64,000 bases of DNA from Candidatus Magasanikbacteria bacterium RIFCSPHIGHO2_01_FULL_33_34 (GCA_001782825.1 MFPS01000007.1:20487-84486); one strand, 5' to 3'. Positions 11,813 through 48,180 are shown, counted from the first letter of the stretch. Program-made: numbers and translations. Notes: a model not told the origin generated them from the sequence alone.

Positions 11813-11815
11813 ATA

Positions 11816-13183: not shown

Positions 13184-13199
13184 ATTATTAAATATTATA

Positions 13200-13809: not shown

Positions 13810-13810
13810 A

Positions 13811-14359
13811 TTAGACTGTGTTTATTTCTTTTTCTTTTTCTTCGCCAATTTCTTTTATCTTTTCATTATATTCTTTGACAATCTTTTCCAATGCATCAAT
13901 ATTTTTATACCTTTCATCTTCTGTTATATCTTTTGCTTTTTCACCATCCTCAATACCTTTTTTAATCTCATCACGAATTTGTCTGACTGATATTCTTGCA
14001 ATTTCCAATTTTTGATGTAAAACTTTTATTAATTCAACCCTTCTATCTTGTGTCAAATCAGGTAAAGGCAAACGCAAAAGCTTACCATCATTTACTGCAT
14101 TAACACCAATTTGTGATTTGTTAATAGCCACTTCAATAGCTTGCAAAACTGATTTGTCCCATGGTTCCACAGTCAATGTTTTAGCATCGGCTACCGAAAT
14201 TGAAGCCAAAGATTTCAAAGGTTGCTTGACACCATAAGCCTCTACTGTGATATCTTCAACCAATGCTGGTGTTGCCCTGCCAGTTCTCAATGTTGATAAT
14301 TCTCCTTTAAAGTGTTCTATCACTTTACTAAATTGTTCATTATAATTTTCTGATAACAT
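13811..14359 (-). CDS. frr: Ribosome recycling factor
   Basis: 182 aa; RRF-like sequence with the conserved Arg/Lys-rich coiled region. Confidence 0.85.
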   Translation of the reverse strand: MLSENYNEQFSKVIEHFKGELSTLRTGRATPALVEDITVEAYGVKQPLKSLASISVADAKTLTVEPWDKSVLQAIEVAINKSQIGVNAVNDGKLLRLPLPDLTQDRRVELIKVLHQKLEIARISVRQIRDEIKKGIEDGEKAKDITEDERYKNIDALEKIVKEYNEKIKEIGEEKEKEINTV

Positions 14360-14369
14360 ATTTTATTAA

Positions 14370-34800: not shown

Positions 34801-35292
34801 ATTATAATATTCTGCAACTTTTTTGGCTTCTGCCAATTTATTTTGTTTCAAGAGTTGAGATACTTCACCTCTGATGTCGCCTGACAAAGCAATAATATTT
34901 TTTGCATATTTTTCTATTGTAGCTCTATCTATTCTCGGCCGACCATCAAAATATCCATCAGTCTGACCAAATGAACAAAGTTTGATCAAATTCCTATAAC
35001 CATCATAATTTTCGGCAAGCAAAATCAAAGAATGATACTCTTTATCAATTTGAGGATCTTTATCTGACATTTTTCTAGGACACACATATGCCTCCATGCC
35101 AATAATCGGTTTTATACCTTCTGCCAAACAAGTTTTGTAGAATTCAATAGCCCCATACATTACTCCAGAATCAGTCAAAGCAATAGCCTCAAAACCATTT
35201 TTTTTGGCATATTGAACAAGCGGTTTAATCCTGACCAAACCATCGAGCAATGAATAATGTGAGTGTATATGTAGATGAGTAAACTTTCCCAT
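31822..35292 (-). CDS. dnaE: DNA polymerase III alpha subunit
   Basis: 1156 aa; N-terminal PHP domain (HLHIHSHYSLLDGL), palm/fingers motifs and OB-fold. Confidence 0.9.
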   Translation of the reverse strand: MGKFTHLHIHSHYSLLDGLVRIKPLVQYAKKNGFEAIALTDSGVMYGAIEFYKTCLAEGIKPIIGMEAYVCPRKMSDKDPQIDKEYHSLILLAENYDGYRNLIKLCSFGQTDGYFDGRPRIDRATIEKYAKNIIALSGDIRGEVSQLLKQNKLAEAKKVAEYYNKVFGDNNFYLELQDHPAIEGQIDVNTKMIQLSKDTGIPLVVTRDVHYLHTDDAEAQDVLRCISNGWRVDQMSREDFRQVDRSLNFEEDIASRFRHVPEAIENTGKIADRINIEIELDNWHFAPVELPEGITYDEELRRLAYANVEKFMSRSKEVDDRLDYELDIIKTKGYAPYFLCVADYVKYAKSNGIVESTRGSAAGSLVSYVIGITTVDPMRFKLPFERFLNPFRPSPPDVDTDFADDRRDDMIKYVTDKYGKDKVAQIITFGTMAARASVRDVGRTLGFSYNFCDQVAKLIPMGSQGFAMTIERALKEEPDLKKLYETNPDVKKLLNLAQKVEGCARHTSIHAAGVVISPTDLTDFTPVQYETGGDKLVTQYEMKSVESAGVLKNDFLGIRNLSILGKAVEFVEKTTGEKVDIYSLPYDDKKTFEMLSRGETMGVFQLAGSGMTRWLKELKPTNIDDIMAMVALYRPGPMESIPEYIKRKYHPEYITFFDERLRDILQASFGLLVYQDDVMLTAIELAGYDWMEADKFRKAMGKKIPEEMAKQKEKFYQGCAEYGKVKKEIIDEMWTAIEPFAAYGFNKAHAASYGVVAYQTAYMKANYPVQYMAAVLQAEFGDAEKVSLIVQECKRMNIEVLPPDVNESFRNFAMVSKPGEKGRIRFGLSAIKNVGEHICEVIYRERKNNGTYQSLEDFLMRVKDKDLNKKSVESMAKSGALDCFLIDRGILLANIENILFFIKDSREKSVSNQNSLFSGTPISFDNKVTLKEADNATMDEKLLWEKDLLGLYVSSHPFSFYKEVLKNVTVDLCDIEEYDRDKMVVVGGVIEGLKKMITKKGKIMMFVSIQDLSGNMELLVFPKTYEQTQSSWVVGAVVCVVAKTPREVGDNKLFVEKVYVLDKENVKGVAGLFALGETSTKKKIQEKYMVLKINKEELREHTQKLKEIFGEYSGPYILYMQVNGNIIKTQTFVDPCIELKDKIKSILGVDRIEVGS

Positions 35293-35989: not shown

Positions 35990-36020
35990 CAAAAGGGTCG
36001 TGTTTCCACGACCCTTAAAA
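35990..36020. terminator. Bidirectional hairpin terminator
   Basis: GGGTCGTG-tttc-CACGACCC flanked by A/T runs. Confidence 0.55.
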
Positions 36021-36043: not shown

Positions 36044-36868
36044 TCACACAGCTATCATTTGCTTTTCCCCCTTGGATGAATTAATTAAGCCAAAGCCATT
36101 ATTCATGAACATCTCTCCTCTGATGTCTAGATTCATGTCGTCCACCACCCTCAGGACGGCATTGTATGCGTCGGATACCCGACGACTTTTGGCATCCAAC
36201 GTCTCCGTCGAATACCTGTGGTTCAGTTTCTGAGAAATGTCTTCGTAGTACATCGCTGGGTGAGGTATCTCGTAGAAACTAACATCTGCTCTCCCGTTCC
36301 AAACACGTAACAAGAGTTCGATGGGAATTCCATACCTCTCCACGATCAAATGTGGAGCTACGAGCTCAACATGCTCTATCCTGAATCCCATAAACCCTGT
36401 ACGTACATCCGAAAGTGCAACTCCTGTGATGGCTTTAAACACGCTCGAAAACGTGATATTAAGGATCAACCTGTCCAACGGAGTACTGGACTGATCAGAT
36501 TCAGGGTGAAACCTGGAGCAGGTCACGACGTCGTGATGACTCAAGAGTCTGTAAACCCTAGGAATCAACTCAATATCGTGTTGTCCGTCGGCGTCGAACT
36601 TGATCACATGACTTGCGTTGCCGTCTTGTACGATCTTTTGTAACCCCACTTTAGTCGCAGCACCGACCCCCATATTATGGGGCAGTACAATTACGTTATC
36701 GGTGAATTCCCTTGCAATTTCTGCACTTCTATCCTCCGACCCGTCGTCGACTATGTACAGTCTAGTCTTGACCCCATCGATTTTGACTGGAATCCGTGCC
36801 AAGATCTCGCCCAACGTCTCCTGTTCGTTGAAAATTGGGCTGAACAGTGCGATCTCATTGTTCATCAA
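36044..36868 (-). CDS. Family-2 glycosyltransferase (DPM1/polyprenyl-phosphate glycosyltransferase-like), compositionally foreign
   Basis: IVDDGSEDRS and DADGQHD motifs. GC visibly much higher than neighbours (runs like cgtcgtccaccaccctcaggacggc). Confidence 0.7.
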   Translation of the reverse strand: MMNNEIALFSPIFNEQETLGEILARIPVKIDGVKTRLYIVDDGSEDRSAEIAREFTDNVIVLPHNMGVGAATKVGLQKIVQDGNASHVIKFDADGQHDIELIPRVYRLLSHHDVVTCSRFHPESDQSSTPLDRLILNITFSSVFKAITGVALSDVRTGFMGFRIEHVELVAPHLIVERYGIPIELLLRVWNGRADVSFYEIPHPAMYYEDISQKLNHRYSTETLDAKSRRVSDAYNAVLRVVDDMNLDIRGEMFMNNGFGLINSSKGEKQMIAV

Positions 36869-36945: not shown

Positions 36946-37686
36946 TTACAAATATTGTTCCAATCTAGTTAATTGTTCTGGTGTATTAGCACCTAATGCC
37001 TGAAAATATTCTAAAATCTCAAAAGAAGAAATCACCTGTTTTTGAGATGAGGCCAATTTAGGAAGATCAGTAATATAATACTCTTGAGATGCATTAGTGT
37101 TTCCAAGTTTACTCAAGTTAGAACATAACCACCTTGAATCAAAGCAATAATAACTTACATTAACTTCTGTTATTTCTTTTTGTTTGTCAGTGGCGTCTTT
37201 ATATTCAATTATTTCTACAATTTTCCCATTCTCATCTCTTACTATTCTTCCTGAATGTAAAAATTGAGAAAATACTCCTTCAAAATTTGGTACTTTTACA
37301 GTTCCAATAGTAACAATAGCTGATGTTTCCTTATGTATTTCAACAATTTTCTTCAAAGTTTCTGCTTTAATAAGAGGGTGATCACCAGGAAGTATAAAAA
37401 TATTTTTAGAACCTTCCTTGTCAATATAATCTCTCGCACATGAAACAGCATGGCCAGTACCCAACTGTTTATCTTGAATAATATAAGTAGTACTTTCCCC
37501 TTCCAGACATCTACGTACTTGCTCATGACCATAACCAACAACTGTTATTGGTTTTGGAGAAATAGAAATAGCTTCCTCAAATACATACTTTAACATTGGT
37601 TTATTTGCCAATTCATGTAATACTTTAGGTTTATCTGAATTCATTCTTGTGCCTTTTCCTGCGGCTAAAATTAATACTTGATCCAT
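36946..37686 (-). CDS. Sugar-phosphate nucleotidyltransferase (GlmU N-domain / MobA-like fold)
   Basis: N-terminal LILAAGKGTRM nucleotide-binding motif; 246 aa. Confidence 0.65.
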   Translation of the reverse strand: MDQVLILAAGKGTRMNSDKPKVLHELANKPMLKYVFEEAISISPKPITVVGYGHEQVRRCLEGESTTYIIQDKQLGTGHAVSCARDYIDKEGSKNIFILPGDHPLIKAETLKKIVEIHKETSAIVTIGTVKVPNFEGVFSQFLHSGRIVRDENGKIVEIIEYKDATDKQKEITEVNVSYYCFDSRWLCSNLSKLGNTNASQEYYITDLPKLASSQKQVISSFEILEYFQALGANTPEQLTRLEQYL

Positions 37687-37691: not shown

Positions 37692-40600
37692 TTACTTTAT
37701 TTCTTCTAACAAATAATTATCAAACTCTACATCCATAAAATCTGTTCTAATTCCAGAGTAACCTTTCTTAGTGATTGCTGCCCCACCAAAACTCTCCCCA
37801 TCATCAAAAACTTGTACCGCTTGTTTCCAAGTTCCACTATCTGTTTTTGTAAAAAGGGTAATTTCAACACCATTATCTTTATTTTTTATTTCACTTCTTA
37901 CACCAATCCATTTTTCTTTAGTTAACAAACTTGTATTTGTTTCCCTATTATAAGTACCATCTAATATCTTTTCAGATGCAAGTGTGTAATATTTACCATT
38001 TATTTTCTTTTTTATAACTGCATTACCATCTACCCTTATACCTGCATAATACAAATTATTTTGATCTAAATACCTACTAAACAACAATAAGGCATTTGAT
38101 TCATATCTATGTTCACTTTTACTTAAATTGTCTTCAATAACCTTAAAATAAACTTCTTGTTGATAATTTAATAGTTTATTTTTATTTATTAATCTAAAAA
38201 TATTCTGAGAATGATAACCATCATCAGTTTCATCAGAATTATATTCATTATATTTTATTCTCCATTTATCATCCTCTGACAACTCACCTTGTAGAGTCAT
38301 GCCAACACCATCTTCATTTATAAAATAAGAACCTGAATTAACCCACCAATTTTCACTAACACTCTTTTCCATACTACCAACCTCTTCTAATCTACCAGCC
38401 ACACTAAAATCATCTGAAAAACTAAAAGCACTCACAAACAGATTATATATCTTTTTAATTATGTTATTTTTCTCGACTTTTATATCCAACACAATCTCAG
38501 TTGGGACATATTCTTTTATAACAAGATCAATTACAGATTCATTGTTACTCTCATCTAACTCGCTTAATGTCTTTACGGGTATATCTTGTTTTGAAATAAT
38601 GTCCATTAGCTTCTCAAAATTATCTACTGGATATCCTTCATCATCTTCTTGTGATATTTTTATTCTATGAAAAGTTAAAAACAAAGTTGTGTTATATTTC
38701 TTAGCATCTCTTACTGCCAAATCAATAGCTGATACTGGTGTGTCATCATATACTGAAAAAGTTTTAACACCATATGGGTCAGCAAATGGATACACTTCTG
38801 GAGAATTAATTGTTGTTCTAGCAAATTTGTAATACTTAGAAAGTATATTCTTTATCTCTTCATTTGTGGCACCATGTGGATATATGTACCAATTAGGTGC
38901 AGAGTTTATATCATTATCTTCTAAATACTTAAGACCGCCAACAACGTCTCTTTCATAATCACTTAAATTATTTTTATCGTAATAATAAGTTACTGCATTT
39001 CTATGGTGAGTAGAATGATTTACCATATTCCAATCATCCTCATTTTGAAGTTTCTTCAAATCATCTAAATATAAATAATTAGTATTTATACCTGGACGAT
39101 CTGCAATAACTGCTATATTACCCTTGATACCATGTTCTCTCATTATGTCTGCAGCTTTTAATACTGTCTTGTGCCCATCATCAAACACAATCACAACAGA
39201 ACCACCTTCCTGCTCAGGAATAGTATATAGTCCATCTAAAAATATTTTAGGGTAAGCCCCATTGTTTGTAGTAGACCTAAATTTAATACTATCAATTTTA
39301 GACCAGTCGAACCCAGGCTCCCCAAATCTCCATTGGCCACCTCTTTCACGTACACCACTTTTTCCTATACTTATATCTAACCACTCTTCATTATATTCGT
39401 ATCTGTAAGGGTTCAAAAGACTAAAAGAAGCATAATTATTCCAATTATCGTTTGACAATAATATAGAGGCACCAACAGCATTCATTGCATTTTCAATTTT
39501 CATTCTTAACCAAAGATTACTATGTGACAAATCAATAGTTTTTTTAATTTCAGCTTCTGGCTTCATACCAGTTAATATAAGTCCTGTATCATCAAAATAA
39601 CTATACACATAATCATCAGAAGAGTTTAAATTCCAATTTTCAAATCTATTAAATGATAAAATTTGTTTCTTATCTGCAGAATTAATTTCATTATTTGAAA
39701 CATTTATAATTTCCTCTTCACCTAACATTGTCTCAACATTAATATTGTAAACTTTTTTACCTGTACTTATTTCAATATTTTTATTATCCTTATCAATTTT
39801 TGTGACCAAATTATTATCAATATCGCCTATTGTTATAAGTGTGGCAAAAAATGCATTACTATTTTCTTGTTTATAAGAAACAGAATAACAAGGTACTTTT
39901 TCCTCATATACAAAAGAACACCAACCATCTACAGGTTCTTCCTGTCCTTTAATAGTACCTACAGTAGTCCCATTATCTATTAATTGACGTATGTTGAAAT
40001 CAACTTTTTTACCCTTAACATTCAACTTAAGATTATTAACATCTATTTCTGCGTCTGGATTCAAATGAAATTTTTGTTCATATACATGATCCTCCCCAGA
40101 GATCAAACTGTCCAAAACTAACACTAAATCATCTTCTAACAAAACTACAGCCCTACTATGTTCAACACCATCATTCAAGTTTTGAGAAGCAGTTTGGTAT
40201 GAGTATTCATCATCCTCAAAAAAAGTAATAGCAATAGCAGAACCAACTTTTTGATCCTTTCCATCCACTACAACTGTATTATGCGCACTTGTGCCATGAA
40301 AATAATCCTTATACTTACCTTCTTCATAAGTGTACAAACCAGAGTCACCAATTAATACTTGACTCTGACTATACAAAACAAAGTTCAAAGCATCTAAATC
40401 ACTATGTTCAGTTCTATAAGGACCAATATCAAAAATTATTTGAGTTTGTTTTTCAAAATCATCGCCCTTCCCCCAACCAGAACGCATAATTGTTTGTCCA
40501 GAAACTGGATAGTATATACTTTTATTTGATGGTTCCTTACCATCTTCACCCCTTGTTAAAACATATAAAAATTCATCATCTTGTTTTGATATATCTTTAT

Positions 40601-41675
40601 ATTCTCTAGAAAAATTAATTTCTCTATCTAAAGAAGCACCAATAATAGGAATTCTTAAATTTGGATGTAATATGTATGTAGCATATGAAATTGTTTTATC
40701 TATTTTACTTTCAAACTCACTACTTAATTCTATATCATTATCTTTTGCATAATTATATATCTCCCAATACTTTTCCATTGCGTAAAAGTGATAATAAGGA
40801 GAATTTTCTACTAAAATACCATCCCCATCTACAATATCAGCGATACCGCTATTTAATCTGCGTTTAGAAATTTCTAACCATTTACCACCATCATCTAATT
40901 CAGGAAAATTAACAGCCAAAACTAAAAGAGCTGTCGCTTGGTTTATACCATGATTATATTCTGCTTCATAATGGTTATTATCTAGTAAAAAATCGCCATG
41001 CACCTTAATAGATTTCAATAATTTTGTACTCAACTCATAAGATAACTGATTATGTTCCCTTAACTTATACCAGCTATTTGTTAAAACCATAGATCTAAAG
41101 GCAACAGCATGATAATCTTCCCAAGATTGCTCTTTTTCCATTCCAACATCAGCAAAACTCTCTAGTATGTCTTTTAATTCATTAAAATATTCTTCATTTT
41201 CGGTTTCTATACCAGCATACAATAAATGTCTTGTATGTCTAAGACTATAAAACATAAAACGCCAATATCTTTCATCAAAAGGATCTTCTTCCCAAGTTAT
41301 CTCATCTTCAATTTTGAAATCTTCGTATCTATCTATTTGATAAATATCCTCCAAATATTTATCAGCAACTTCAATACTACCTTTATCCAAAAAAGAATAA
41401 GCAATTTCTCTACCCTTACCAGTTTTTGGATAATTATCAAATATATCTTTCCATACTGAAGACTCAATATCTTTACTTCTACATATATACCCACCAGAGA
41501 TTCTTAAACGAACTTCATTATCTCCACATTTTAATCTTAAATCTTGTACAAAGTCTACAACATTATTAACTAACGTCTTAGTGCTTGTATAAAAATACCT
41601 ACCAAAGATAATCAATATAACCACAGTAGCTATCAATAAAAATATTTTTTCAATTGTTTTTATTCTCTTGACCAT
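37692..41675 (-). CDS. Giant (1327 aa) membrane-anchored polysaccharide-modifying protein: heparinase II/III-like lyase domains + CE4 polysaccharide deacetylase + extra beta-rich domains
   Basis: N-terminal TM; alpha/alpha-toroid region with the HFYAMEKYWE and HGTSAHNTVVVDGKDQ heparinase II/III signatures; NodB domain VIVFDDGHKT...NHSTHH; ~300-aa C-terminal beta-rich tail. Confidence 0.6.
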   Translation of the reverse strand: MVKRIKTIEKIFLLIATVVILIIFGRYFYTSTKTLVNNVVDFVQDLRLKCGDNEVRLRISGGYICRSKDIESSVWKDIFDNYPKTGKGREIAYSFLDKGSIEVADKYLEDIYQIDRYEDFKIEDEITWEEDPFDERYWRFMFYSLRHTRHLLYAGIETENEEYFNELKDILESFADVGMEKEQSWEDYHAVAFRSMVLTNSWYKLREHNQLSYELSTKLLKSIKVHGDFLLDNNHYEAEYNHGINQATALLVLAVNFPELDDGGKWLEISKRRLNSGIADIVDGDGILVENSPYYHFYAMEKYWEIYNYAKDNDIELSSEFESKIDKTISYATYILHPNLRIPIIGASLDREINFSREYKDISKQDDEFLYVLTRGEDGKEPSNKSIYYPVSGQTIMRSGWGKGDDFEKQTQIIFDIGPYRTEHSDLDALNFVLYSQSQVLIGDSGLYTYEEGKYKDYFHGTSAHNTVVVDGKDQKVGSAIAITFFEDDEYSYQTASQNLNDGVEHSRAVVLLEDDLVLVLDSLISGEDHVYEQKFHLNPDAEIDVNNLKLNVKGKKVDFNIRQLIDNGTTVGTIKGQEEPVDGWCSFVYEEKVPCYSVSYKQENSNAFFATLITIGDIDNNLVTKIDKDNKNIEISTGKKVYNINVETMLGEEEIINVSNNEINSADKKQILSFNRFENWNLNSSDDYVYSYFDDTGLILTGMKPEAEIKKTIDLSHSNLWLRMKIENAMNAVGASILLSNDNWNNYASFSLLNPYRYEYNEEWLDISIGKSGVRERGGQWRFGEPGFDWSKIDSIKFRSTTNNGAYPKIFLDGLYTIPEQEGGSVVIVFDDGHKTVLKAADIMREHGIKGNIAVIADRPGINTNYLYLDDLKKLQNEDDWNMVNHSTHHRNAVTYYYDKNNLSDYERDVVGGLKYLEDNDINSAPNWYIYPHGATNEEIKNILSKYYKFARTTINSPEVYPFADPYGVKTFSVYDDTPVSAIDLAVRDAKKYNTTLFLTFHRIKISQEDDEGYPVDNFEKLMDIISKQDIPVKTLSELDESNNESVIDLVIKEYVPTEIVLDIKVEKNNIIKKIYNLFVSAFSFSDDFSVAGRLEEVGSMEKSVSENWWVNSGSYFINEDGVGMTLQGELSEDDKWRIKYNEYNSDETDDGYHSQNIFRLINKNKLLNYQQEVYFKVIEDNLSKSEHRYESNALLLFSRYLDQNNLYYAGIRVDGNAVIKKKINGKYYTLASEKILDGTYNRETNTSLLTKEKWIGVRSEIKNKDNGVEITLFTKTDSGTWKQAVQVFDDGESFGGAAITKKGYSGIRTDFMDVEFDNYLLEEIK

Positions 41676-43027
41676 ATCATTTTTTTAATAGTTGCAGCTG
41701 AATAGAATATAAGCCAACTTAATACTAATGTTGAAAATAAACTCATAAGTGGTCTATACATGTATATATGTGAACCCTTGTCTTCTGCTTTACATGCTAA
41801 TGAGAATGAAAAGCCTATGATAAATATCCCTGCCAAATATATAATTGCTGAATAAATATCACCAACTAAAGGCATATAAACAAGATGCCTTATGGCAATA
41901 AATGGACCCGCCCATACAAAAAGTATATGCAAATAATAGTTTGTAGCCACAATAGGATGTTTTTTCCAATAAAATTCACCCGTAAAAAACATGTTTCTTA
42001 TAAAACTCTTTTTCCAACGAACCTGCTGTTTTATTACTGCTCTAAAAGTTTCTGGGACATTTGTTAAAGCTCTTGCAGATTTACAATATATAATTCTCCA
42101 AGATTGTGGAGGGTAAGTTTTTTTCAAGAAAGGAGAACCAGCATATTTTTTCTTTAATCTTTTATCAAGTTCATTAGAACCTAAAACAAATCCAGTCAAA
42201 GTACGATCAGTTGCAAACCTAAATTCCTGGCCAAAAAAACTATCGTGTTGCCACGCAGGTATATAATTATATATAGCAGAACGACGAAATACCGCTAATG
42301 GTCCTGATACACAACTTACTGCACTAAAAACACTCTCAAAAGCTTTTCTTACTGAGAATTGCCCTTCGTACCAAGAGTCTTGTATTTTTGTTATTAAATT
42401 CTTTTTTCCATTCAAAGCTCTACAATGACCACTTACACCACCCACATCAGGATTTGCTTGAAAGATTGTAACTATTCTTTCAATAGCATCTGGAGCAAGT
42501 ACTGAATCACTATCTGAAAATGCAAAGACCTCTCCTTTGGCCACAAGCATACCTTCAGCAAGTGCACGCTTTTTACCAACATTTTTATCTAATTTTATAA
42601 TTTTAACGTTTTTATTTTTCGAATATTTATCTACTAAAACCTTTCTTGTATTATCTGTACTTGCGTCATCTATAATTATAATCTCCTGATTTTTGTAAGT
42701 TTGTCCAAGAAAAGAATCTACACATTGAACTATAACATCTTCTTCATTATGTACAGCAACAAGGGAACTAACAAATAAACTTGGAATCTTATTTTTCTTT
42801 TTTAAATATTTTTTTGCTTCAATATATGGATCAGAATAAAAACGAAAAGCCACTACGAAGGTAATTAATAATACTAAAGTAACCAAAAGGCCATATACAT
42901 ATATAAATATATTACCCCTATCTACAAACAAAAGTTTGGCTAAAAATAATACCAAAATCACTATAATAACCACGTACATTATAGATATATAATCCCCTAG
43001 TGTTTTTTTACTCTTTTTAGCAGGCAT
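41660..43027 (-). CDS. Processive GT2 polysaccharide synthase (PgaC/IcaA/NodC/HAS-like) with N- and C-terminal TM bundles
   Basis: IIDDASTDNT, FSDSDS and QQVRWKKS (QxxRW) motifs. The stop overlaps the start of the 1327-aa gene by 16 nt. Confidence 0.7.
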   Translation of the reverse strand: MPAKKSKKTLGDYISIMYVVIIVILVLFLAKLLFVDRGNIFIYVYGLLVTLVLLITFVVAFRFYSDPYIEAKKYLKKKNKIPSLFVSSLVAVHNEEDVIVQCVDSFLGQTYKNQEIIIIDDASTDNTRKVLVDKYSKNKNVKIIKLDKNVGKKRALAEGMLVAKGEVFAFSDSDSVLAPDAIERIVTIFQANPDVGGVSGHCRALNGKKNLITKIQDSWYEGQFSVRKAFESVFSAVSCVSGPLAVFRRSAIYNYIPAWQHDSFFGQEFRFATDRTLTGFVLGSNELDKRLKKKYAGSPFLKKTYPPQSWRIIYCKSARALTNVPETFRAVIKQQVRWKKSFIRNMFFTGEFYWKKHPIVATNYYLHILFVWAGPFIAIRHLVYMPLVGDIYSAIIYLAGIFIIGFSFSLACKAEDKGSHIYMYRPLMSLFSTLVLSWLIFYSAATIKKMIWSRE

Positions 43028-43433
43028 AAATAAGACTTACAGTCTATTAATTATATGACTGCATAACCTACCACAAAATATAATTTTTGTCAAATATCTG
43101 TATAGTTAATATTCCTTATGTATCCCTTTTAGACATAATTGATAAATTATGTACTCAATAACATAAATTTAGTGTTCAAAAAAGGTATATATGAACACAT
43201 TATTTATCCACAGTTCACAGTTTAGCAACCGCTTGGTATAAATAAAAAAAACTGGTATAATGCCAGTAGGTTAATTCTTCATATATTTTTATGAGGGGAG
43301 CTAAAAAATCATTTTAAATTTTAAAGCCATTTTTTGATAGGCTATTTTTTGTCTCATTTCTACACTTGACAAAAAATACTAAATATGATAATGTTGCAAC
43401 CATTTAATCAAAGTACTTTTTATCATCTAATAG

Positions 43434-43506
43434 TGCCATCTAGTGGGATTGAACCACTACCTCAGGCTTAGCGGGCTCGCGTTCTATCCAGTTAAACTAA
43501 GATGAC
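43434..43506 (-). tRNA. tRNA-like gene, atypical (anticodon-loop reading GCU with C33 and no long variable arm); possibly a pseudogene or unusual tRNA
   Basis: Good acceptor (GTCATCT/AGATGGC), D-arm with GG, T-arm AGTGG-TTCAATC-CCACT. Anticodon stem CGAGC/GCCTG has one mismatch and the loop is CCGCTAA. Confidence 0.4.
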
Positions 43507-43565
43507 ACAATTAGATGATAAAGGGTATTTTAATCCTTTACAATTCCCCTTGCCTCTTGTGAGAG

Positions 43566-43847
43566 GTAGGACGAAAATTATTTTATAGAATTACGAGTTT
43601 TGTTTTGCGACTGGCTCGTTTTTCTTTTTAATTAAATTATTCTCATCTTTTTGTTTTTTCTTTTTGTGTTTTTTCGGTAATAGTAGATATATTGTGTTTT
43701 TGGCATATCTCCATATTTTTCCATCTTTGACAGTAAAATTACATAATGTAAAATTACCACAAGGTGATGGAAAGCACCTTTTCGGCGACCCAGTAATTGG
43801 GTGTACTAATATTTCCATAGTTTTCATTTTTCATTTCGTCCTACACC
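43566..43847. repeat. ~280-bp segment bounded by 11-12-bp inverted repeats (ggtaggacgaaa / tttcgtcctacc-like) enclosing the 78-aa ORF
   Basis: 43568-43578 taggacgaaaa is the reverse complement of 43834-43844. GC is higher than surroundings. It sits next to the tRNA-like gene. Confidence 0.3.
43591..43827 (-). CDS. Hypothetical Lys-rich small protein inside the IR-bounded segment
   Basis: 78-aa ORF; no recognised family. Confidence 0.25.
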   Translation of the reverse strand: MKTMEILVHPITGSPKRCFPSPCGNFTLCNFTVKDGKIWRYAKNTIYLLLPKKHKKKKQKDENNLIKKKNEPVAKQNS

Positions 43848-44124
43848 GTGCACAAAAGACAAGAGGGATTGTAAAGGTCTATCACAACAAAAAAAGCTCA
43901 ATGAATGTCACCTAACACCTAACCTACGTTTTTAACGCGTAGAATAGACTGTGTTTGCATACTACAATCCTGTCCTTTCAGTCAGGTATAGTATGGCATT
44001 CATTGAACCTTCTTTTAATTACGTTAAAATAAATAGTACAAGAATTATAGTATGCATCTATAACTATAACACATACACTTTTTTTTGCAAATAGCTTATT
44101 GCTATATGTGGATAAAATAAATTA

Positions 44125-44625
44125 CTACTGTGTAATTTCTGGATGTTCTTCTAAATATTTATCTCTAATATAAACACCCAAAGTTGGAGATATATTTTCT
44201 AGACTCCTACTTGGGTTATTGTATTGATAAATTTTCAAAAATTCCATATAAGGCTCATCATACAGTGTAACCACTGACTTTATTGAACTGTTCTCAACAT
44301 CAAATTTTAATTTTGGGTTTTCATTATCTATAAACCTAAAAAAAACTTCTTTATTTTTTTCAAACACATTGTCAAAACCAATTTCTTTAATGAAATTTTT
44401 ACCTTTTTCTGTGAGTTGAAACGGACTAAAAGTCTGCAATTCTGAAGGATCAAATTTTGTATGGTTTTTCATTAAATACTTGCAAACAACATCTAGATTT
44501 ATTTTTGTTTTATCTGATGTTTCTTTTAAGTTATCTAAAATCTGGAGTTTTCTTCCAATATAGATAAAAGCCCCTAAGACAGACACTATCCCTATCGTAG
44601 AGATTATTTGAAATGGAGAAAACAT
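44125..44625 (-). CDS. Hypothetical membrane-anchored protein (start trimmed to internal Met)
   Basis: The track ORF 44125..44802 overlaps the transposase gene by 72 nt. Met60 (MFSPFQIISTIGIV, a TM helix) is the more likely start. Confidence 0.4.
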   Translation of the reverse strand: MFSPFQIISTIGIVSVLGAFIYIGRKLQILDNLKETSDKTKINLDVVCKYLMKNHTKFDPSELQTFSPFQLTEKGKNFIKEIGFDNVFEKNKEVFFRFIDNENPKLKFDVENSSIKSVVTLYDEPYMEFLKIYQYNNPSRSLENISPTLGVYIRDKYLEEHPEITQ

Positions 44626-44639
44626 AAATTTCAATTTAT

Positions 44640-45720
44640 ATGTTGAAGTATTTTTATATTGATAGTATACTACAACAACTATGAAAAAACAACAAGCCCA
44701 AACTCCATTCCACAATCTACTAAAAAAGATTATTTCTTCACGACCGCAGAAAGCAAAGAAGCGAAGCGTAGCCTGTCGTTGCCTCGGTTGTTCCAATGCC
44801 AAACAAACTGGTCAAGATAACTCTGCAACTGCTCCTGCGAAATAGATTTGTATGTGCCTCGCAAAGAGGCTTTTACATGTTTCCAAAACCATTCTACATG
44901 GTTTATGTGTATGTCCCCCCGGGCATATTCTTTTTTTGAGTGATTAACGCTTTCTCGGTGGTATTCTTTGCTGGCGTTATCATAGCGGTTGCTCTCGTCT
45001 GTTAGAAGTCTGGTATTTTCAATTTGCACATTATCTTTCAAAAAACCATCAATCGTTTTGGCGGTTAGATTTGGTACTTTCTTGGCTCTCATGTCACCCT
45101 CACGCTCAATGGCGGCGATAACCTTAGCTTTACTTGCCATAACATCAGAATAGTTTTTATTATATTTTCCGCCATTGCCTTTACCGCCAAAAAACGCCTC
45201 GTCCATTTCCACATTGCCTCGCAGTGGGGTTGTGTCTTGCCCTATACTATCTCTGATTTGCTTTAATACCCTATAAGCGGTCTTATAGGTAACATTTAGC
45301 TGTCTTTGCATTTCTTTAGCTGATATACCTGATTTGGCGTTTGAGAATATCAAAATAGCATGAAACCATTGTTTTAGAGGTAAATGGGACTTTTCAAAAA
45401 TGCTGTCTGTCATTGGGGCGATTTGATACCTGCATTTTGAGCATTGATATTGTTTACGCCCTGTTAGCCTAACTCGTCCCTTTTTGTCTATTGTGGTCTT
45501 AAATAGAGGATTATATTCACCGCCACAAGCGCACTCCTTTGTATGTGATAGGCTGAATAGATAGTCTAGGCATGCCTCGTCAGTAGGGAAATCATGCTCT
45601 AGGTCTGTTCTGCCATAATAGTCTTGTTTTGCCATATTGTTATATTTAATTGATTATGTTGTAAGTATAACATAGACTAATTATGTTGTAAAGGGATACA
45701 TGTGTAATATTCAAGAATTA
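44640..45720 (-). mobile_element. IS1595-like insertion sequence (approximate bounds)
   Basis: A single transposase ORF with atypical composition. Terminal inverted repeats were not confidently located by eye. Confidence 0.4.
44730..45635 (-). CDS. IS1595-family (ISXO2-like) DDE transposase
   Basis: N-terminal zinc ribbon (CACGG...CSKCRY) followed by HTH and DDE region. GC and codon usage are higher than the host background. Confidence 0.7.
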   Translation of the reverse strand: MAKQDYYGRTDLEHDFPTDEACLDYLFSLSHTKECACGGEYNPLFKTTIDKKGRVRLTGRKQYQCSKCRYQIAPMTDSIFEKSHLPLKQWFHAILIFSNAKSGISAKEMQRQLNVTYKTAYRVLKQIRDSIGQDTTPLRGNVEMDEAFFGGKGNGGKYNKNYSDVMASKAKVIAAIEREGDMRAKKVPNLTAKTIDGFLKDNVQIENTRLLTDESNRYDNASKEYHRESVNHSKKEYARGDIHINHVEWFWKHVKASLRGTYKSISQEQLQSYLDQFVWHWNNRGNDRLRFASLLSAVVKK

Positions 45721-45744
45721 TGACATCTAAAATATTAATAAAAT

Positions 45745-45782
45745 AAAAACTATTGGCCAATATATTGACCAATAGTTTTTAT
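45745..45782 (-). terminator. Hairpin terminator after the epimerase gene
   Basis: aaaaactattggccaata / tattgaccaatagttttt near-perfect palindrome. Confidence 0.5.
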
Positions 45783-45787
45783 CTTTT

Positions 45788-46738
45788 TTATTCCAAACCC
45801 CAATCTCTCTTCAATTCTGCAATCCCATCTTCAAATTTTATAGTTGGTTCCCAACCAAGAAGTTCTTTGGCTTTGGTTGTATCGGCTTCACTGCGTCTTG
45901 GGTCGCCTGGTCTCTCTGGTATATTCATAGTCTCGCCACCGATTAGACGCGCCAATTCATTGACTGATTTGCATTGACCATACCCAGCATTGATCACTTC
46001 ACCTTTGCCGACTTTGTCAGATGTCATCGCCAATAAATTTGCCCTAGCCACATCAGCCACATGGGTATAATCCCGATAATACTCCCCATCCCCACAAATC
46101 GTCATTGGCTCGCCTTTGGCTCTTTGTTTGAGGAATTTACCCACTACCAATGCATAAGCTCCTTCTGGGTCAATATATGGCCCATACACATTGAAATAGC
46201 GAAGTGATACTGTCTCAAAACCATAAAGCTCACTAAACAATCGGCAATACATCTCGCCTGTATATTTATGGAGCGCATAGGGGCTGATCGGGTTACCACA
46301 CATATCTTCTCTCAATTTTTCATTATCATTGCCACCATAGACAGATGACGAAGAGCTAAACACAAATCTTTTGACACCAGCATCGCGCGCGCCTACCAAC
46401 AGAGTCAGGGTTCCATTTACATTATTATCATTGGTTTCAATCGGATGCTCAATAGAATATGGCACACGTGGTATCGCTGCCAGATGAAATACGCCATCAA
46501 TACCCACCATAGCGCGCTTCACATCCTCCATATTGCGAATATCCCCTTCTATATATTCAACACCCTTTTGGATCCTATCATCTTTTTTGCCAGCGCTAAA
46601 ATTATCCAAAACACGAACTTTATGTCCATCACTCAAAAGTTTAATAACAATATTTGTGCCAATAAATCCAGCGCCACCGGTAACCAAATATTTCTTAGCC
46701 AATAGTTCAGAGCCAATAGGTTGTGCTTGATTGTTCAT
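45788..46738 (-). CDS. NAD-dependent nucleotide-sugar 4-epimerase (GalE/UDP-glucuronate epimerase-like extended SDR)
   Basis: TGGAGFIG Rossmann motif, YxxxK catalytic pair (YALHKY). Confidence 0.75.
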   Translation of the reverse strand: MNNQAQPIGSELLAKKYLVTGGAGFIGTNIVIKLLSDGHKVRVLDNFSAGKKDDRIQKGVEYIEGDIRNMEDVKRAMVGIDGVFHLAAIPRVPYSIEHPIETNDNNVNGTLTLLVGARDAGVKRFVFSSSSSVYGGNDNEKLREDMCGNPISPYALHKYTGEMYCRLFSELYGFETVSLRYFNVYGPYIDPEGAYALVVGKFLKQRAKGEPMTICGDGEYYRDYTHVADVARANLLAMTSDKVGKGEVINAGYGQCKSVNELARLIGGETMNIPERPGDPRRSEADTTKAKELLGWEPTIKFEDGIAELKRDWGLE

Positions 46739-46785
46739 AGTATTAGGTTTTAATTTTCTTATTTTGCTTATTCTGCCTATTCTGC

Positions 46786-48180
46786 TTAATTTGCTGATTC
46801 GCCTTTTATAAAAGGACTACCAATAGCGACAATATCAAATCCGGCTTTTTGCAATTCTTCATATCTGTGTTGCAAAATTCTACGCCCATCCATTATCAAA
46901 GTTTTATTATCAACTCCATCAATAATAGCATCAGCAAGACTACGAAATTGTGGCCAGTCAGTTGCAATAATTATTATATCAGAATCTTTAATCGCTTCAA
47001 ATTCACTAGTACAATATTTTATCTTGTCTGATTCAGGAAAATCATATTTAAACAAATCAGCTCCTTCTGGATCATACAATTGCATTTTTTCTACTCCATT
47101 TTCTTCCAAATGGCGGACAATATTTATACTTGGCGAATTACGAGTATCATTGGTATCTTTTTTGAAAGATAATCCAACAATAGCGACTTTCTTTCCACTC
47201 CAATCTACATTGGCATCATTTTTGGCTCGGCTCAAAAATAATTCTAATTGCCTTTTGTTTGCCAAATAAGTTTCATTGACAAGCACAGCATTTTGACCAG
47301 CTGTTTGTAATTGATGTGACAAAGAACGCGCGTCTTTTATAAAACAACTACCACCGGCATAAAGACTATCATAAAATCCCCAATTGCCAATTCTCTTGTC
47401 ACTAGTCATTATTCCTCGTAAATTTTCAAACTGCAAATCAGAAAAAGCTTCAGCCGTACGGCCAATCACATCAAAACATACCGCAAGTCTATTAAACAAA
47501 TAGAAATTTGCCAAAAGTTTTCCAGCGGCCGCTTCTTTTGGATTTACTTCAATATATTTAACCGTTGCTGAATCATAAAAACGCTGATACATCTTGCGCA
47601 TTATTTCAAAATCTTTTTCATTCCATGCACCAACCACCACTCTATCCGGACGAATTGATCCAACGATAGCTTGACCTTCAACCAAAAATTCTGGATTAGA
47701 GACAACCCCATAATTTTTTACTCCATATTTATCCATTATTTCTTGTGTCTTATCAACCATTGCAATTGGCACTGTACTTTTGTTTACAATCACTACATAT
47801 CTATCTTGCTTTCCACCATTTCGTTTAGCAAGATTTTCTCCCAAAGCTTCAGCGGCAGAATTATAATATTCCAAATTACTTTCCCCAGTTTCCCCTATCT
47901 CTGGAGTTGGTAAGCACATAAAAATAGCATCAACTGTATCCAAAAAATCAATTACCCGAGAATAATCAGTGGTAAATTCAATCCTATCTTTGTGACGAAT
48001 TAACAAATCACCTAAACCATCTTCAAAAATAACTGCTTCAATTACATCACGATCCCCTGACCCCAAAGCTTTTATTTTCTTTTCATCAATATCATAAACA
48101 AGCACATTGTGCCCACTATCAGCCGAAACAGCAGCCGAGCATGCGCCTACAAAACCTGAGCCAATATATAGAATATTCAT
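46786..48180 (-). CDS. ugd: UDP-glucose / UDP-N-acetyl-hexosamine 6-dehydrogenase family
   Basis: IGSGFVG N-terminal Rossmann motif, catalytic GGSCFIKD, 464 aa. Confidence 0.75.
   Translation of the reverse strand: MNILYIGSGFVGACSAAVSADSGHNVLVYDIDEKKIKALGSGDRDVIEAVIFEDGLGDLLIRHKDRIEFTTDYSRVIDFLDTVDAIFMCLPTPEIGETGESNLEYYNSAAEALGENLAKRNGGKQDRYVVIVNKSTVPIAMVDKTQEIMDKYGVKNYGVVSNPEFLVEGQAIVGSIRPDRVVVGAWNEKDFEIMRKMYQRFYDSATVKYIEVNPKEAAAGKLLANFYLFNRLAVCFDVIGRTAEAFSDLQFENLRGIMTSDKRIGNWGFYDSLYAGGSCFIKDARSLSHQLQTAGQNAVLVNETYLANKRQLELFLSRAKNDANVDWSGKKVAIVGLSFKKDTNDTRNSPSINIVRHLEENGVEKMQLYDPEGADLFKYDFPESDKIKYCTSEFEAIKDSDIIIIATDWPQFRSLADAIIDGVDNKTLIMDGRRILQHRYEELQKAGFDIVAIGSPFIKGESAN

What the first reader, a model, noticed from the sequence alone, without database searches (positions are those of the whole stretch)
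37692..43027. EPS synthase/modification operon: PgaC-like GT2 synthase overlapping a 1327-aa heparinase-II/III + CE4 deacetylase multi-domain protein
The processive GT2 synthase (QxxRW, DDAST, FSDSD) overlaps by 16 nt the start of a giant membrane-anchored protein. That protein combines a polysaccharide-lyase-like heparinase II/III module (HNT motif), a NodB/CE4 deacetylase module and about 500 aa of additional beta-rich domains. Functionally this parallels PgaC/PgaB (synthase plus deacetylase/hydrolase) of poly-GlcNAc systems but with a lyase-type module instead of a GH domain. I do not recognise this architecture as described. For a putative episymbiont the product could mediate attachment to a host cell.
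Basis: partly seen in the sequence, partly recalled or inferred. Interest (0 to 1): 0.6.

Follow-up and report, generated by a model that had tools for sequence, protein, structure and literature searches.

The report
Uncharacterised acidic amino-polysaccharide synthase–modification operon
A candidate-phylum bacterium carries a four-gene operon, conserved as a cassette across distant microbes, that most likely makes and exports a sugar polymer resembling animal glycosaminoglycans and then trims and de-acetylates it outside the cell; nobody has yet shown what this polymer is.

Summary
A 455-aa membrane GT2 (41660-43027, minus strand) overlaps by 16 nt a 1327-aa membrane-anchored protein (37692-41675). 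That protein has Heparinase II/III N and C domains and a CE4 deacetylase domain, all above Pfam thresholds.

The interpretation needs three corrections.
- The synthase is of the chitin-synthase/hyaluronan-synthase/NodC type, not PgaC.
- The giant protein is a genuine fusion of two genes that are usually separate: the lyase-fold/deacetylase protein (about 1100 aa) and a roughly 300-aa concanavalin-A-like protein.
- The architecture is not rare. At least 354 proteins and hundreds of genomes carry it (CPR, Actinomycetota, Chloroflexota, DPANN archaea), almost always directly after the same highly conserved GT2.

In about half of the informative loci a UDP-N-acetylhexosamine 6-dehydrogenase sits directly upstream of the GT2. 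The PL12 catalytic Asn/Tyr/His and the CE4 Asp/His residues are nearly invariant.

Best reading: a synthase-dependent pathway for an acidic, N-acetylated (glycosaminoglycan-like) exopolysaccharide. The polymer would be processed outside the cell by C5-proton chemistry (lyase or epimerase) plus N-deacetylation. I found no characterised member in the searchable literature. It is a new variant of a known kind.

The parts
41660..43027 (-). Processive membrane GT2 synthase (455 aa) of the chitin-synthase/hyaluronan-synthase/NodC type. It is the first gene of the operon.
   Evidence: Pfam Glycos_transf_2 5.5e-33 and Chitin_synth_2 2.2e-15. Best PDB relatives are hyaluronan synthases. PgaC and NodC equivalog cut-offs are not reached. 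57% identical to the GT2 of a 3.8-Mb genome of uncertain affiliation. Mean column identity is 51% across 18 orthologues from three phyla and archaea. Hydrophobic segments at 16-34, 43-61, 394-412 and 427-445.
41660..41675 (-). 16-nt overlap between the GT2 stop and the start of the large gene, consistent with translational coupling.
   Evidence: Equivalent overlaps (13-16 nt) occur in L001, L002, L085 and L086.
37692..41675 (-). 1327-aa type-II membrane-anchored multidomain protein: PL12-like module, beta-sandwich, CE4 deacetylase and ConA-like domain.
41592..41657 (-). N-terminal signal-anchor helix (about aa 7-28). The rest of the protein is predicted to lie outside the cell.
   Evidence: Hydropathy 2.37 over aa 7-25, preceded by MVKRIK. 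The topology is inferred from the positive-inside rule.
39726..41393 (-). Heparinase-III (PL12)-like module, aa about 95-650: an (alpha/alpha) toroid plus a beta-sandwich. N241/H242, Y295 and H424 align with the PL12 catalytic residues.
   Evidence: Pfam. PDB 4mmh/4mmi at 5e-20. Foldseek 4mmh at 5e-33. The catalytic residues of 4MMH are Tyr294, His424 and Asn240 (PMC12088678). They are conserved in 119-120 of 120 homologues.
39216..39611 (-). Middle beta-sandwich, aa about 689-820. It has no Pfam match and is probably a carbohydrate-binding or spacer module that forms a unit with the CE4 domain.
   Evidence: No Pfam hit. Strands in the model. Together with the CE4 domain it matches the HFTV1 turret deacetylase 8qpg and phage tail esterases.
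38541..39200 (-). CE4 (NodB-type) polysaccharide deacetylase domain, aa about 826-1045, with its catalytic and metal residues intact.
   Evidence: Pfam 38 bits against a cut-off of 23. D832 120/120, D833 118/120, H887 118/120, H891 at least 95% conserved, H1003 118/120. Foldseek matches to CE4 structures 2cc0, 7ax7 and 4l1g.
37695..38423 (-). C-terminal concanavalin-A-like beta-sandwich, aa about 1085-1327, preceded by a long helix. In most other genomes it is a separate gene of about 300 aa.
   Evidence: No Pfam family. 721 homologues, mostly stand-alone proteins of 270-350 aa in CPR. Model pLDDT 88.6. Best folds are CBM66 and legume lectins. It lies directly after the lyase/deacetylase gene in L004, L011, L014 and L020.
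36946..37686 (-). Sugar-1-phosphate uridylyltransferase corresponding to the N-terminal half of GlmU only. It probably supplies UDP-GlcNAc. Its start lies 5 nt after the stop of the large gene.
   Evidence: NCBIfam GlmU profile positions 2-235 of 452, 4.8e-69. Found with the cassette in L014 and L086.
36044..36868 (-). Small GT2 (274 aa), like polyprenyl-phosphate sugar synthases (PpgS/Dpm1 type). It is the last gene of the operon and its role is unknown.
   Evidence: Co-occurs with the cassette in L014 and L086.
35993..36016 (-). Intrinsic-terminator-like hairpin (10-bp stem with 6 GC pairs, then a T-run) 28 nt after the small GT2. It probably marks the end of the operon.
45788..48180 (-). 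Upstream transcription unit: UDP-glucose 6-dehydrogenase type (46786-48180) plus a TviC/GalE-like 4-epimerase (45788-46738). A possible uronic-acid supply, but the link is weak.
   Evidence: It ends in its own terminator-like palindrome at 45740-45785. This dehydrogenase type is not seen beside the cassette in other loci.
43108..45711 (.). Probable IS1595-family insertion between the two units. It is not part of the system.
   Evidence: DDE_Tnp_IS1595 1.1e-30. Imperfect terminal inverted repeats at 43108-43155 and 45664-45711.

Best explanation
The window encodes a four-gene operon (43027 to 36044, minus strand) for a synthase-dependent exopolysaccharide. The polymer contains N-acetylated amino sugar and uronic acid, so it is a bacterial glycosaminoglycan-like polymer.

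Proposed mechanism:
1. The chitin-synthase/hyaluronan-synthase-type GT2 polymerises UDP-sugars at the cytoplasmic face and threads the chain through its own membrane channel (inferred from family membership).
2. The next gene is translationally coupled. Its product is anchored by one helix and sits outside the membrane, where it meets the emerging chain (inferred from topology).
3. Its PL12-fold module abstracts the C5 proton of uronate residues. It then either cuts the chain by beta-elimination, for release or length control, or re-protonates it as a C5-epimerase.
4. Its CE4 module removes part of the N-acetyl groups, which gives the polymer cationic or zwitterionic character.
5. The C-terminal concanavalin-A-like domain binds the product.
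6. The GlmU-N-type uridylyltransferase in the operon supplies UDP-GlcNAc.

Shown here: the domains, the conservation of catalytic residues, the gene order and the cross-phylum conservation of the cassette. Inferred: the donor sugars, the polymer structure, the lyase-versus-epimerase outcome and the biological role.
For: Domains and overlap.

Conserved cassette. The order GT2, then Hepar/CE4, then a ConA-like protein is found in the L001 genome of uncertain affiliation, Gaiellaceae, CPR and archaeal MAGs with otherwise unrelated flanks. About 30 loci have the GT2 directly beside the Hepar gene.

Fusion and fission patterns that link the parts:
- ConA-like part as a separate gene (L001, L002, L004, L014).
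- ConA-like part fused at the C-terminus (window, P0002-P0005).
- A Laminin_G_3 domain fused at the N-terminus (L033).
- Hepar and CE4 split on either side of the GT2 in Actinoplanes (L046).

Active sites are retained. N241 is kept in 119/120, H242 in 118/120, Y295 in 120/120 and H424 in 119/120 homologues. They align to HepIII Asn240, Tyr294 and His424. For the CE4 domain, D832, D833, H887, H891 and H1003 are conserved.

Uronic-acid chemistry. A nucleotide-sugar dehydrogenase lies directly upstream of the GT2 in 13 loci, including the closest fused relative L084. It groups with UDP-ManNAc/UDP-GlcNAc/NDP-GalNAc dehydrogenases (270-233 bits) rather than UDP-Glc dehydrogenases (137 bits or less).

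UDP-GlcNAc supply sits in the operon.

The GT2's best solved relatives are hyaluronan synthases.

The ConA-like domain has invariant basic residues (R122, R151, R175, K183-K185 of the fragment), which would suit a polyanion (inference).
Against: - No product is known for any member.
- The window itself has no UDP-HexNAc dehydrogenase within 64 kb. Its nearby UDP-Glc-type dehydrogenase and epimerase form a separate unit behind an IS element, and this pairing is not seen in other loci.
- About half of the informative loci lack an adjacent dehydrogenase.
- The GT2 could make plain chitin or chito-oligosaccharide.
- A conserved catalytic triad does not prove activity on the cell's own polymer.
- A lyase made together with its synthase in a cell without a periplasm lacks an obvious rationale.
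- Some taxon labels of MAG contigs (Bdellovibrionales, Gammaproteobacteria) may be binning errors.
Confidence: 0.6

Rival explanations
1. Same pathway, but the PL12-fold module is a polymer-level uronate C5-epimerase, as human dermatan-sulfate epimerase 1 is, rather than a lyase. The protein would then be a combined epimerase and N-deacetylase, a prokaryotic counterpart of glycosaminoglycan maturation.
For: The model matches human DS-epi1 (6hzn) at E 6e-14 in the same fold class. DS-epi1 uses a His/Tyr set shared with these lyases (PMC8006597). The hosts are monoderms or CPR with no periplasm to clear, which weakens the AlgL-type rationale (general knowledge; PMC8829089 was seen only as a title and abstract). 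The module is present in every cassette and is translationally coupled, as expected for a modifier.
Against: The closest sequence and fold relatives are all lyases (PL12, then PL39/15/35/17/33). The full lyase triad Asn/Tyr/His is retained. No residue pattern known to me separates the two outcomes.
Confidence: 0.25
2. The GT2 makes chitin or chito-oligosaccharide (NodC-like) and the CE4 domain converts it to chitosan-like material (NodB-like). The heparinase-like module would then only bind the chain or act on something else.
For: NodC profile 124 bits and Chitin_synth_2 57 bits. CE4 is the NodB family. A GlmU-N-type enzyme is in the operon. No UDP-HexNAc dehydrogenase is found in the window.
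Against: A lyase or epimerase triad that is nearly invariant in 120 homologues has no substrate in a neutral GlcNAc polymer. A UDP-HexNAc 6-dehydrogenase lies directly upstream of orthologous GT2s that are about 55% identical. The NodC equivalog cut-off (550 bits) is far from met.
Confidence: 0.1
3. A true Pga/Ica-type poly-beta-1,6-GlcNAc system, as the first reader suggested by analogy.
For: The best NCBIfam hit of the GT2 is PgaC_IcaA (134 bits). A deacetylase partner is present.
Against: The score is far below the 422-bit cut-off and covers only profile positions 3-221 of 407. The GT2 has chitin-synthase/HAS-type motifs and its PDB relatives are of that type. There is no GH153 domain and no PgaD/IcaD-like partner.
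Confidence: 0.03
4. The large protein is a catabolic or offensive enzyme that degrades host or environmental glycosaminoglycan-like capsules, and its position next to the GT2 is incidental.
For: All characterised relatives of the PL12-like module are degradative lyases. The beta-sandwich plus CE4 unit resembles phage tail deacetylases that attack surface glycans.
Against: The GT2-Hepar adjacency, usually with overlapping stop and start, is kept across CPR, Actinomycetota, Chloroflexota and archaeal MAGs with unrelated flanks. There are no transporters or sugar-catabolic genes in the operon.
Confidence: 0.04

Closest known systems
PgaC/PgaB (and IcaA/IcaB) poly-beta-1,6-GlcNAc systems, and PelF/PelA
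   Same: A synthase-dependent logic. A membrane GT2 (a GT4 in Pel) is followed by an extracytoplasmic enzyme that joins a chain-cleaving-type module to a CE4-type deacetylase (PgaB: CE4 plus GH153; PelA: hydrolase plus deacetylase). This rests on general knowledge of those systems. The survey of synthase-dependent systems in PMC7112194 mentions no heparinase or lyase.
   Different: The GT2 belongs to the chitin-synthase/HAS/NodC branch, not PgaC. The cleaving-type module is a PL12-fold lyase or epimerase that needs uronate, not a glycoside hydrolase. A ConA-like third component is present. There are no outer-membrane, TPR or c-di-GMP parts.
Heparinase III / PL12 (Pedobacter heparinus HepC 4MMH; Bacteroides BT4657 5JMD/4FNV)
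   Same: The same two Pfam domains and the same fold (Foldseek E 5e-33, TM 0.68-0.74 on the target). The catalytic Asn, Tyr and His align and are conserved.
   Different: About 19% identity. The NCBIfam HepC equivalogs score 101 and 72 bits against cut-offs of 700 and 600. This protein is membrane-anchored, fused to CE4, and sits in a biosynthetic operon rather than a utilisation locus.
Class I hyaluronan synthases and the streptococcal has operon (synthase plus UDP-Glc dehydrogenase plus sugar-1-P uridylyltransferase)
   Same: The best solved relatives of the GT2; the Chlorella-virus HAS aligns over aa 106-417, including the membrane part. The operon or neighbourhood holds a nucleotide-sugar dehydrogenase and a uridylyltransferase. 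The has-operon composition is from general knowledge.
   Different: Only 54-68 bits to HAS. The dehydrogenase that travels with the cassette is of the UDP-HexNAc type, not UDP-Glc. HAS systems have no extracellular lyase/deacetylase partner.
UNGD, chitin-synthase-like (and polysaccharide deacetylase) gene cluster of fungi, chloroviruses and phaeoviruses
   Same: The same gene content: a UDP-GlcNAc 6-dehydrogenase next to a chitin-synthase-like GT2, with a polysaccharide deacetylase in one clade. The product was unknown in those papers (PMC4059230, PMC5122149). A heparinase-less prokaryotic version (dehydrogenase, GT2, 728-aa CE4 protein) was found in L083.
   Different: Orthology between the prokaryotic GT2 and the eukaryotic or viral CHSL was not tested. 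Those clusters have no PL12-like or ConA-like component. The window itself lacks the UNGD.
Human dermatan-sulfate epimerase 1 and alginate AlgL/AlgG
   Same: Polymer-level C5-proton abstraction on uronates by a biosynthesis-associated enzyme. DS-epi1 shares the toroid plus beta-sandwich fold.
   Different: No detectable sequence similarity to DS-epi1. AlgL (PL5) and AlgG have different folds (general knowledge).

Membership tests
PgaC/IcaA poly-beta-1,6-GlcNAc synthase (TIGR03937 equivalog) | Score at or above the curated equivalog cut-off (422.3 bits) over the full-length profile | tested here: not met
   134.3 bits, profile positions 3-221 of 407 only.
PgaB-type modifier | CE4 deacetylase domain combined with a GH153 hydrolase domain | tested here: not met
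   CE4 is present. The other catalytic module is Hepar_II_III (PL12-like), not a glycoside hydrolase.
Chitin synthase / hyaluronan synthase / NodC branch of processive GT2 | GT-A domain with D, DxD, (E/D)DR-type and Q(R/Q)xRW motifs plus C-terminal membrane helices; a match to Chitin_synth_2 | tested here: met
   DDAST, DSD, ATDRTLT and QQVRW were read. Chitin_synth_2 scores 56.8 bits against a cut-off of 27. HAS structures align over aa 106-417.
NodC chitooligosaccharide synthase (TIGR04242 equivalog) | Score at or above 550 bits | tested here: not met
   123.8 bits.
Hyaluronan synthase (class I) | Alternating transfer of GlcNAc and GlcA by one GT2 domain | not testable with these tools
   Only similarity is available: 54-68 bits to HAS structures.
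Polysaccharide lyase family 12 (heparinase III) | Hepar_II_III_N and Hepar_II_III_C domains with the toroid plus beta-sandwich fold | tested here: met
   Pfam 77 and 90 bits. Foldseek 4mmh E 5e-33.
Polysaccharide lyase family 12 (heparinase III) | Catalytic Tyr294 and His424 and the neutraliser Asn240 (4MMH numbering) | tested here: met
   They align to Y295, H424 and N241. Conserved in 120/120, 119/120 and 119/120 homologues. Residue roles are from PMC12088678.
Polysaccharide lyase family 12 (heparinase III) | HepC equivalog score (NF045573 at 700 bits or more; NF045572 at 600 or more), meaning heparan-sulfate lyase proper | tested here: not met
   101.4 and 72 bits.
Polysaccharide lyase family 12 (heparinase III) | Beta-eliminative cleavage activity | not testable with these tools
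   Needs an enzyme assay. An epimerase outcome is equally compatible with the residues.
Carbohydrate esterase family 4 (NodB homology domain) | Pfam Polysacc_deac_1 above the gathering score | tested here: met
   38.1 bits against 23.1. Foldseek matches to 2cc0, 7ax7 and 4l1g.
Carbohydrate esterase family 4 (NodB homology domain) | Asp-Asp (motif 1), His-x3-His (motif 2) and His (motif 5) catalytic and metal residues | tested here: met
   FDDG 831-834, HSTHH 887-891 and FHR 1002-1004. Conservation is 118-120/120 for D832, D833, H887 and H1003; H891 is among the positions at least 95% conserved. Motif 3 is atypical (WYIYPxG, with R953 invariant). The motif definitions are from general knowledge of CE4.
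Concanavalin-A-like lectin/glucanase fold (C-terminal domain) | Jelly-roll beta-sandwich matching lectins or CBM66 | tested here: met
   Model pLDDT 88.6. CBM66 4b1m at E 2e-7 with TM 0.78 on the target; legume lectins. No sequence link to Laminin_G_3.
UNGD, CHS-like, deacetylase cluster (fungi and algal viruses) | UDP-GlcNAc 6-dehydrogenase adjacent to the CHS-like GT2 | tested here: inconclusive
   Met in 13 related loci, including L084. Not met in the window. Orthology of the GT2s was not tested.

The most novel reading that the evidence does not exclude
This is one member of a widespread, unstudied pathway of monoderm and ultra-small prokaryotes (CPR, Actinomycetota, Chloroflexota, DPANN archaea). 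The pathway would polymerise an N-acetylhexosaminuronic-acid-containing chain with a chitin/hyaluronan-synthase-type enzyme. It would then mature the chain outside the cell with a single protein that both C5-epimerises uronates and N-deacetylates amino sugars. That would be a prokaryotic counterpart of heparan/dermatan maturation. It could also be the evolutionary source of the enigmatic UNGD/CHS-like/deacetylase clusters of fungi and algal viruses.
Probability: 0.2. Interest if true: 0.8.

Novelty: new variant of a known kind. Interest (0 to 1): 0.6.

Why it matters
Only a handful of synthase-dependent exopolysaccharide systems are understood: cellulose, PNAG, alginate, Pel and hyaluronan. 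This cassette would add one with different chemistry, an acidic and partly de-N-acetylated amino sugar polymer, and a new kind of bifunctional extracellular modifier.

It occurs in hundreds of genomes. Among them are CPR bacteria and DPANN archaea, whose surface biology is almost unknown, and common soil Actinomycetota.

It offers a testable source of glycosaminoglycan-like polymers and of enzymes (an N-deacetylase and a possible C5-epimerase) that are wanted for bioengineered heparin-like products.

It also gives a prokaryotic handle on the unexplained fungal and algal-virus UNGD/CHS-like clusters. Cultured carriers exist (Actinoplanes sp. CA-030573, split version), so the question can be tested directly.

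Tried and rejected
- **Mis-assembly or concatenation.** Rejected. The identical protein is on record from 14 contigs, and there are four independent fused orthologues.
- **PgaC assignment.** Rejected on the profile score and coverage.
- **Homology between the window's C-terminal domain and the actinobacterial Laminin_G_3 gene-3 proteins.** BLASTP and a profile comparison found nothing, and Pfam found nothing. Only the fold class is shared. I therefore call the two analogous, and possibly remotely related.
- **UDP-HexNAc dehydrogenase or WecB 2-epimerase in the window.** None found. WecB is unique to L085.
- **The window's UDP-Glc dehydrogenase/epimerase pair as part of the operon.** Downgraded. 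It is a separate unit ended by a terminator, it lies behind an IS1595 element, and the pairing is not conserved elsewhere.
- **Viral origin.** One IMG/VR hit at 28% identity is a high-GC locus with dehydrogenase, GT2 and CE4 but no heparinase domain. BFVD hits concern only the beta-sandwich/CE4 unit of phage tail proteins.
- **Myxococcota relatives of the Hepar module.** They have no GT2 nearby and a different context (MbnP-like, TPR), so they were not used.
- **Literature searches.** Searches for the fusion or cassette found no description.
- **AFDB Foldseek library.** It was unavailable.

Full report
**1. What is there**

On the minus strand a 455-aa ORF (41660-43027) and a 1327-aa ORF (37692-41675) overlap by 16 nt, ATGGTCAAGAGAATAA. 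An identical 1327-aa protein is on record as a hypothetical protein of a Candidatus Magasanikbacteria MAG (CPR/Patescibacteria). It has been seen on 14 contigs, the longest 1.17 Mb. The window is AT-rich (about 30-37% GC) and shows no compositional break at the locus.

**2. Domain check**

The 455-aa protein is a GT2 (Glycos_transf_2 5.5e-33) that also matches Chitin_synth_2 (2.2e-15). It carries DDAST, DSD, ATDRTLT and QQVRW. It has two N-terminal and at least two C-terminal hydrophobic segments.

The large protein has the following matches:
- Hepar_II_III_N, aa 96-362, 1.9e-21.
- Hepar_II_III_C, aa 384-551, 1.9e-25.
- Polysacc_deac_1, aa 823-947, 1.7e-9.

All three are above the Pfam gathering scores. 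A single N-terminal hydrophobic helix follows a basic N-terminus. By the positive-inside rule, the bulk of the protein lies outside the cell.

An AlphaFold2 model of aa 36-1045, built on 52 homologues, has mean pLDDT 91.8. Its best structural matches are:
- heparinase III (4mmh, E 5e-33);
- PL39, PL15, PL35, PL17, PL33 and PL21 lyases;
- human dermatan-sulfate epimerase 1 (6hzn, 6e-14);
- for the C-terminal part, CE4 esterases and the HFTV1 turret deacetylase.

**3. The giant protein is a real fusion of two cassette genes**

The last 260 aa or so have no Pfam match. They do have 721 homologues, nearly all stand-alone proteins of 270-350 aa from CPR genomes at 50-58% identity. Several of these lie on the same contigs as heparinase/CE4 proteins and directly downstream of them: L004, L011, L014 and L020.

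The domain models with pLDDT 88.6 as a concanavalin-A-like jelly roll behind a long helix. Its best matches are CBM66 and legume lectins.

In the L001 genome (uncertain affiliation), in Actinomycetota and in an archaeal MAG, the gene after the heparinase/CE4 gene is a Laminin_G_3 protein of 281-433 aa, which has the same fold class. I could not show sequence homology between the two.

Fused orthologues of 1372-1454 aa occur in four independent assemblies. The fusion is therefore genuine and specific to this lineage.

**4. A conserved cassette**

Using 52 homologues as the query, at least 499 stretches in GTDB species representatives encode relatives of the lyase-like part. The 79 loci retrieved come from:
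- CPR: Ryan-, Berkel-, Moran- and Saccharibacteria;
- Actinomycetota: Gaiellales, Solirubrobacterales, Thermoleophilia, Micropruina, Streptosporangiaceae and Actinoplanes;
- Chloroflexota and Myxococcota;
- DPANN and Poseidoniales archaeal MAGs.

In about 30 loci the GT2 lies directly beside the heparinase-like gene. They usually overlap, and the flanking genes are otherwise unrelated.

The GT2 is remarkably conserved. It is 57% identical between the CPR window and a 3.8-Mb genome of uncertain affiliation. Mean column identity is 51% over 18 orthologues. Its partner is only 37-50% identical across the same range.

Rearrangements link the parts functionally:
- Actinoplanes sp. CA-030573 has separate Hepar, GT2 and CE4 genes in that order.
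- Solirubrobacterales fuse Laminin_G_3 to the N-terminus of the heparinase-like module.
- Some CPR proteins carry an extra N-terminal region that, by my reading of the sequences, looks like a second CE4-type deacetylase. I did not test this with a domain search.
- One subgroup (L013, L014) has swapped in a more canonical CE4 domain.

**5. Both catalytic modules look active**

The alignment to Pedobacter HepIII (4MMH) places window N241, Y295 and H424 on Asn240, Tyr294 and His424. The literature lists these as the PL12 neutraliser and general base/acid (PMC12088678). In 120 homologues they are kept in 119, 120 and 119 sequences, and H242 in 118.

In the CE4 domain, D832, D833, H887 and H1003 are kept in 118-120 of 120 sequences, and H891 is among the positions at least 95% conserved. 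These are the Asp-Asp pair, the His-x3-His motif (H887, H891) and the late His (H1003). By general knowledge of CE4 enzymes they are the catalytic base, the metal triad and the catalytic acid.

A module that abstracts the C5 proton of a uronate, next to an N-deacetylase, implies a substrate with both carboxylate and acetamido groups.

**6. Neighbours point to the chemistry**

*In the window.* The large gene is followed after 5 nt by a 246-aa protein that matches only the uridylyltransferase half of GlmU (4.8e-69). After a further 77 nt comes a small PpgS/Dpm1-like GT2, and then a strong terminator-like hairpin. The GlmU-N and small-GT2 genes also accompany the cassette in L014 (same order) and in L086 (upstream).

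*In relatives.* In 13 loci a nucleotide-sugar dehydrogenase sits immediately upstream of the GT2. These include CPR, Actinomycetota and archaeal MAGs, and the closest fused relative L084. The dehydrogenase scores best with UDP-ManNAc/UDP-GlcNAc (TviB) dehydrogenase models. Among solved structures it is closest to UDP-ManNAc dehydrogenases and an NDP-GalNAcA dehydrogenase (270-233 bits), against 137 bits or less for UDP-glucose dehydrogenases. One relative (L085) has a WecB-type 2-epimerase there instead; this is unique among the loci.

*The gap in the window.* The window has no dehydrogenase of this type. It has a UDP-glucose-type dehydrogenase and a TviC/GalE-like epimerase 2.8-5 kb upstream. 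These form their own unit, ended by a terminator. A roughly 2.6-kb IS1595-like element with imperfect terminal inverted repeats separates them from the GT2. This pairing is not seen at other loci, so I treat it as weak evidence.

**7. Most likely mechanism**

The GT2 polymerises and exports a chain built from UDP-HexNAc-derived sugars, at least some of them oxidised to uronic acids. This could be a HexNAcA-containing polymer or an alternating HexNAc/uronate polymer. The co-translated, membrane-anchored ectoprotein receives the chain.
- Its PL12-fold module cleaves the chain (release or length control) or epimerises uronates.
- Its CE4 module removes part of the N-acetyl groups.
- Its ConA-like module binds the polymer. 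This module has 34 invariant columns, including a KKK triplet and three Arg.

The domain content, residue conservation and gene linkage are shown. The sugars, the lyase-versus-epimerase outcome and the biological role are inferred.

**8. Comparison with what is known**

The design parallels PgaC/PgaB, IcaA/IcaB and PelF/PelA, but membership fails:
- PgaC scores 134 bits against a cut-off of 422.
- There is no GH153 domain.

The synthase belongs to the chitin-synthase/HAS/NodC branch.

The closest described gene-content analogue is the UNGD/chitin-synthase-like(/polysaccharide deacetylase) cluster of fungi, chloroviruses and phaeoviruses. Its product was unknown in the papers I read (PMC4059230, PMC5122149). 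A heparinase-less prokaryotic version (dehydrogenase, GT2, CE4 protein) turned up in L083.

A systematic survey of synthase-dependent EPS operons mentions neither heparinase nor lyase (PMC7112194). My literature searches found no description of this fusion or cassette. About 1.4 million PMC articles and most subscription papers are outside the searched library, so absence from it is not proof.

**9. Verdict**

The locus is a member of a large, uncharacterised family of synthase-dependent polysaccharide cassettes. I rate it a new variant of a known kind. The episymbiont-attachment idea is not supported specifically, because free-living Actinomycetota carry the same cassette. Interest is moderate to high (0.6), because the polymer chemistry and the bifunctional modifier are unexplored and can be tested in cultured carriers.

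Noticed in passing
window 43108-45711: Probable IS1595-family element. It has a 301-aa DDE transposase (44730-45635, minus strand) and imperfect 48-nt terminal inverted repeats (43108-43155 and 45664-45711). It carries a 225-aa ORF with two hydrophobic segments and no family match (44125-44802), plus about 1 kb of hairpin-rich non-coding DNA. No clean target-site duplication was seen.
   Followed up: partly
window 45740-45785 (minus strand): A near-perfect 20-bp-stem palindrome followed by a T-rich tail, just 3' of the epimerase stop codon (45788). It looks like a terminator and closes the dehydrogenase/epimerase unit before the IS element.
   Followed up: partly
L046 (Actinoplanes sp. CA-030573, NZ_CP192038) 7809-14888: A cultured actinomycete carries a split version of the cassette: Hepar (657 aa), GT2 (481 aa), CE4 (334 aa), an unknown gene, then a 606-aa CE4-containing protein. 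It could serve as an experimental model.
   Followed up: partly
L083 (IMG/VR UViG_3300019888_000005) 4577-8864: A high-GC contig filed as viral carries a UDP-HexNAc-type dehydrogenase, a distant GT2 (28% identity) and a 728-aa CE4 protein, with no heparinase-like module. This is a simpler relative of the cassette, and possibly a prophage or a mis-filed bacterial contig.
   Followed up: partly
window 39216-39200 region / model residues 654-1010: The beta-sandwich plus CE4 unit resembles virion proteins: the HFTV1 turret 'prokaryotic polysaccharide deacetylase' (8qpg), Bacillus phage G gp673 and an Arthrobacter phage esterase. Phage glycan-modifying tail modules and this biosynthetic modifier seem to share one module.
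   Followed up: no
L013, L065, L051, L056 (archaeal MAGs): DPANN (Iainarchaeum-type) MAGs carry the GT2-Hepar pair, with the Hepar part 45-52% identical to the CPR protein. The Poseidoniales and Thalassarchaeaceae MAGs carry only the heparinase-like gene, at about 33% identity. This suggests cross-domain transfer among ultra-small cells, or binning errors. I did not verify which.
   Followed up: no
L021-L028, L031, L058, L060 (Myxococcota, including the cultured Pyxidicoccus caerfyrddinensis and Corallococcus terminator): Stand-alone heparinase-like proteins of about 665-680 aa, 36-40% identical to the window's module. No GT2 is adjacent. In L026 the neighbours are an MbnP-like protein and a TPR protein, so the context is different and unexplained.
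   Followed up: partly
window 31822-35292 (minus strand): The DNA polymerase III alpha subunit (DnaE, 1156 aa) lies directly downstream of the operon. It is ordinary housekeeping context, which suggests the operon sits in the core chromosome rather than on an island.
   Followed up: no
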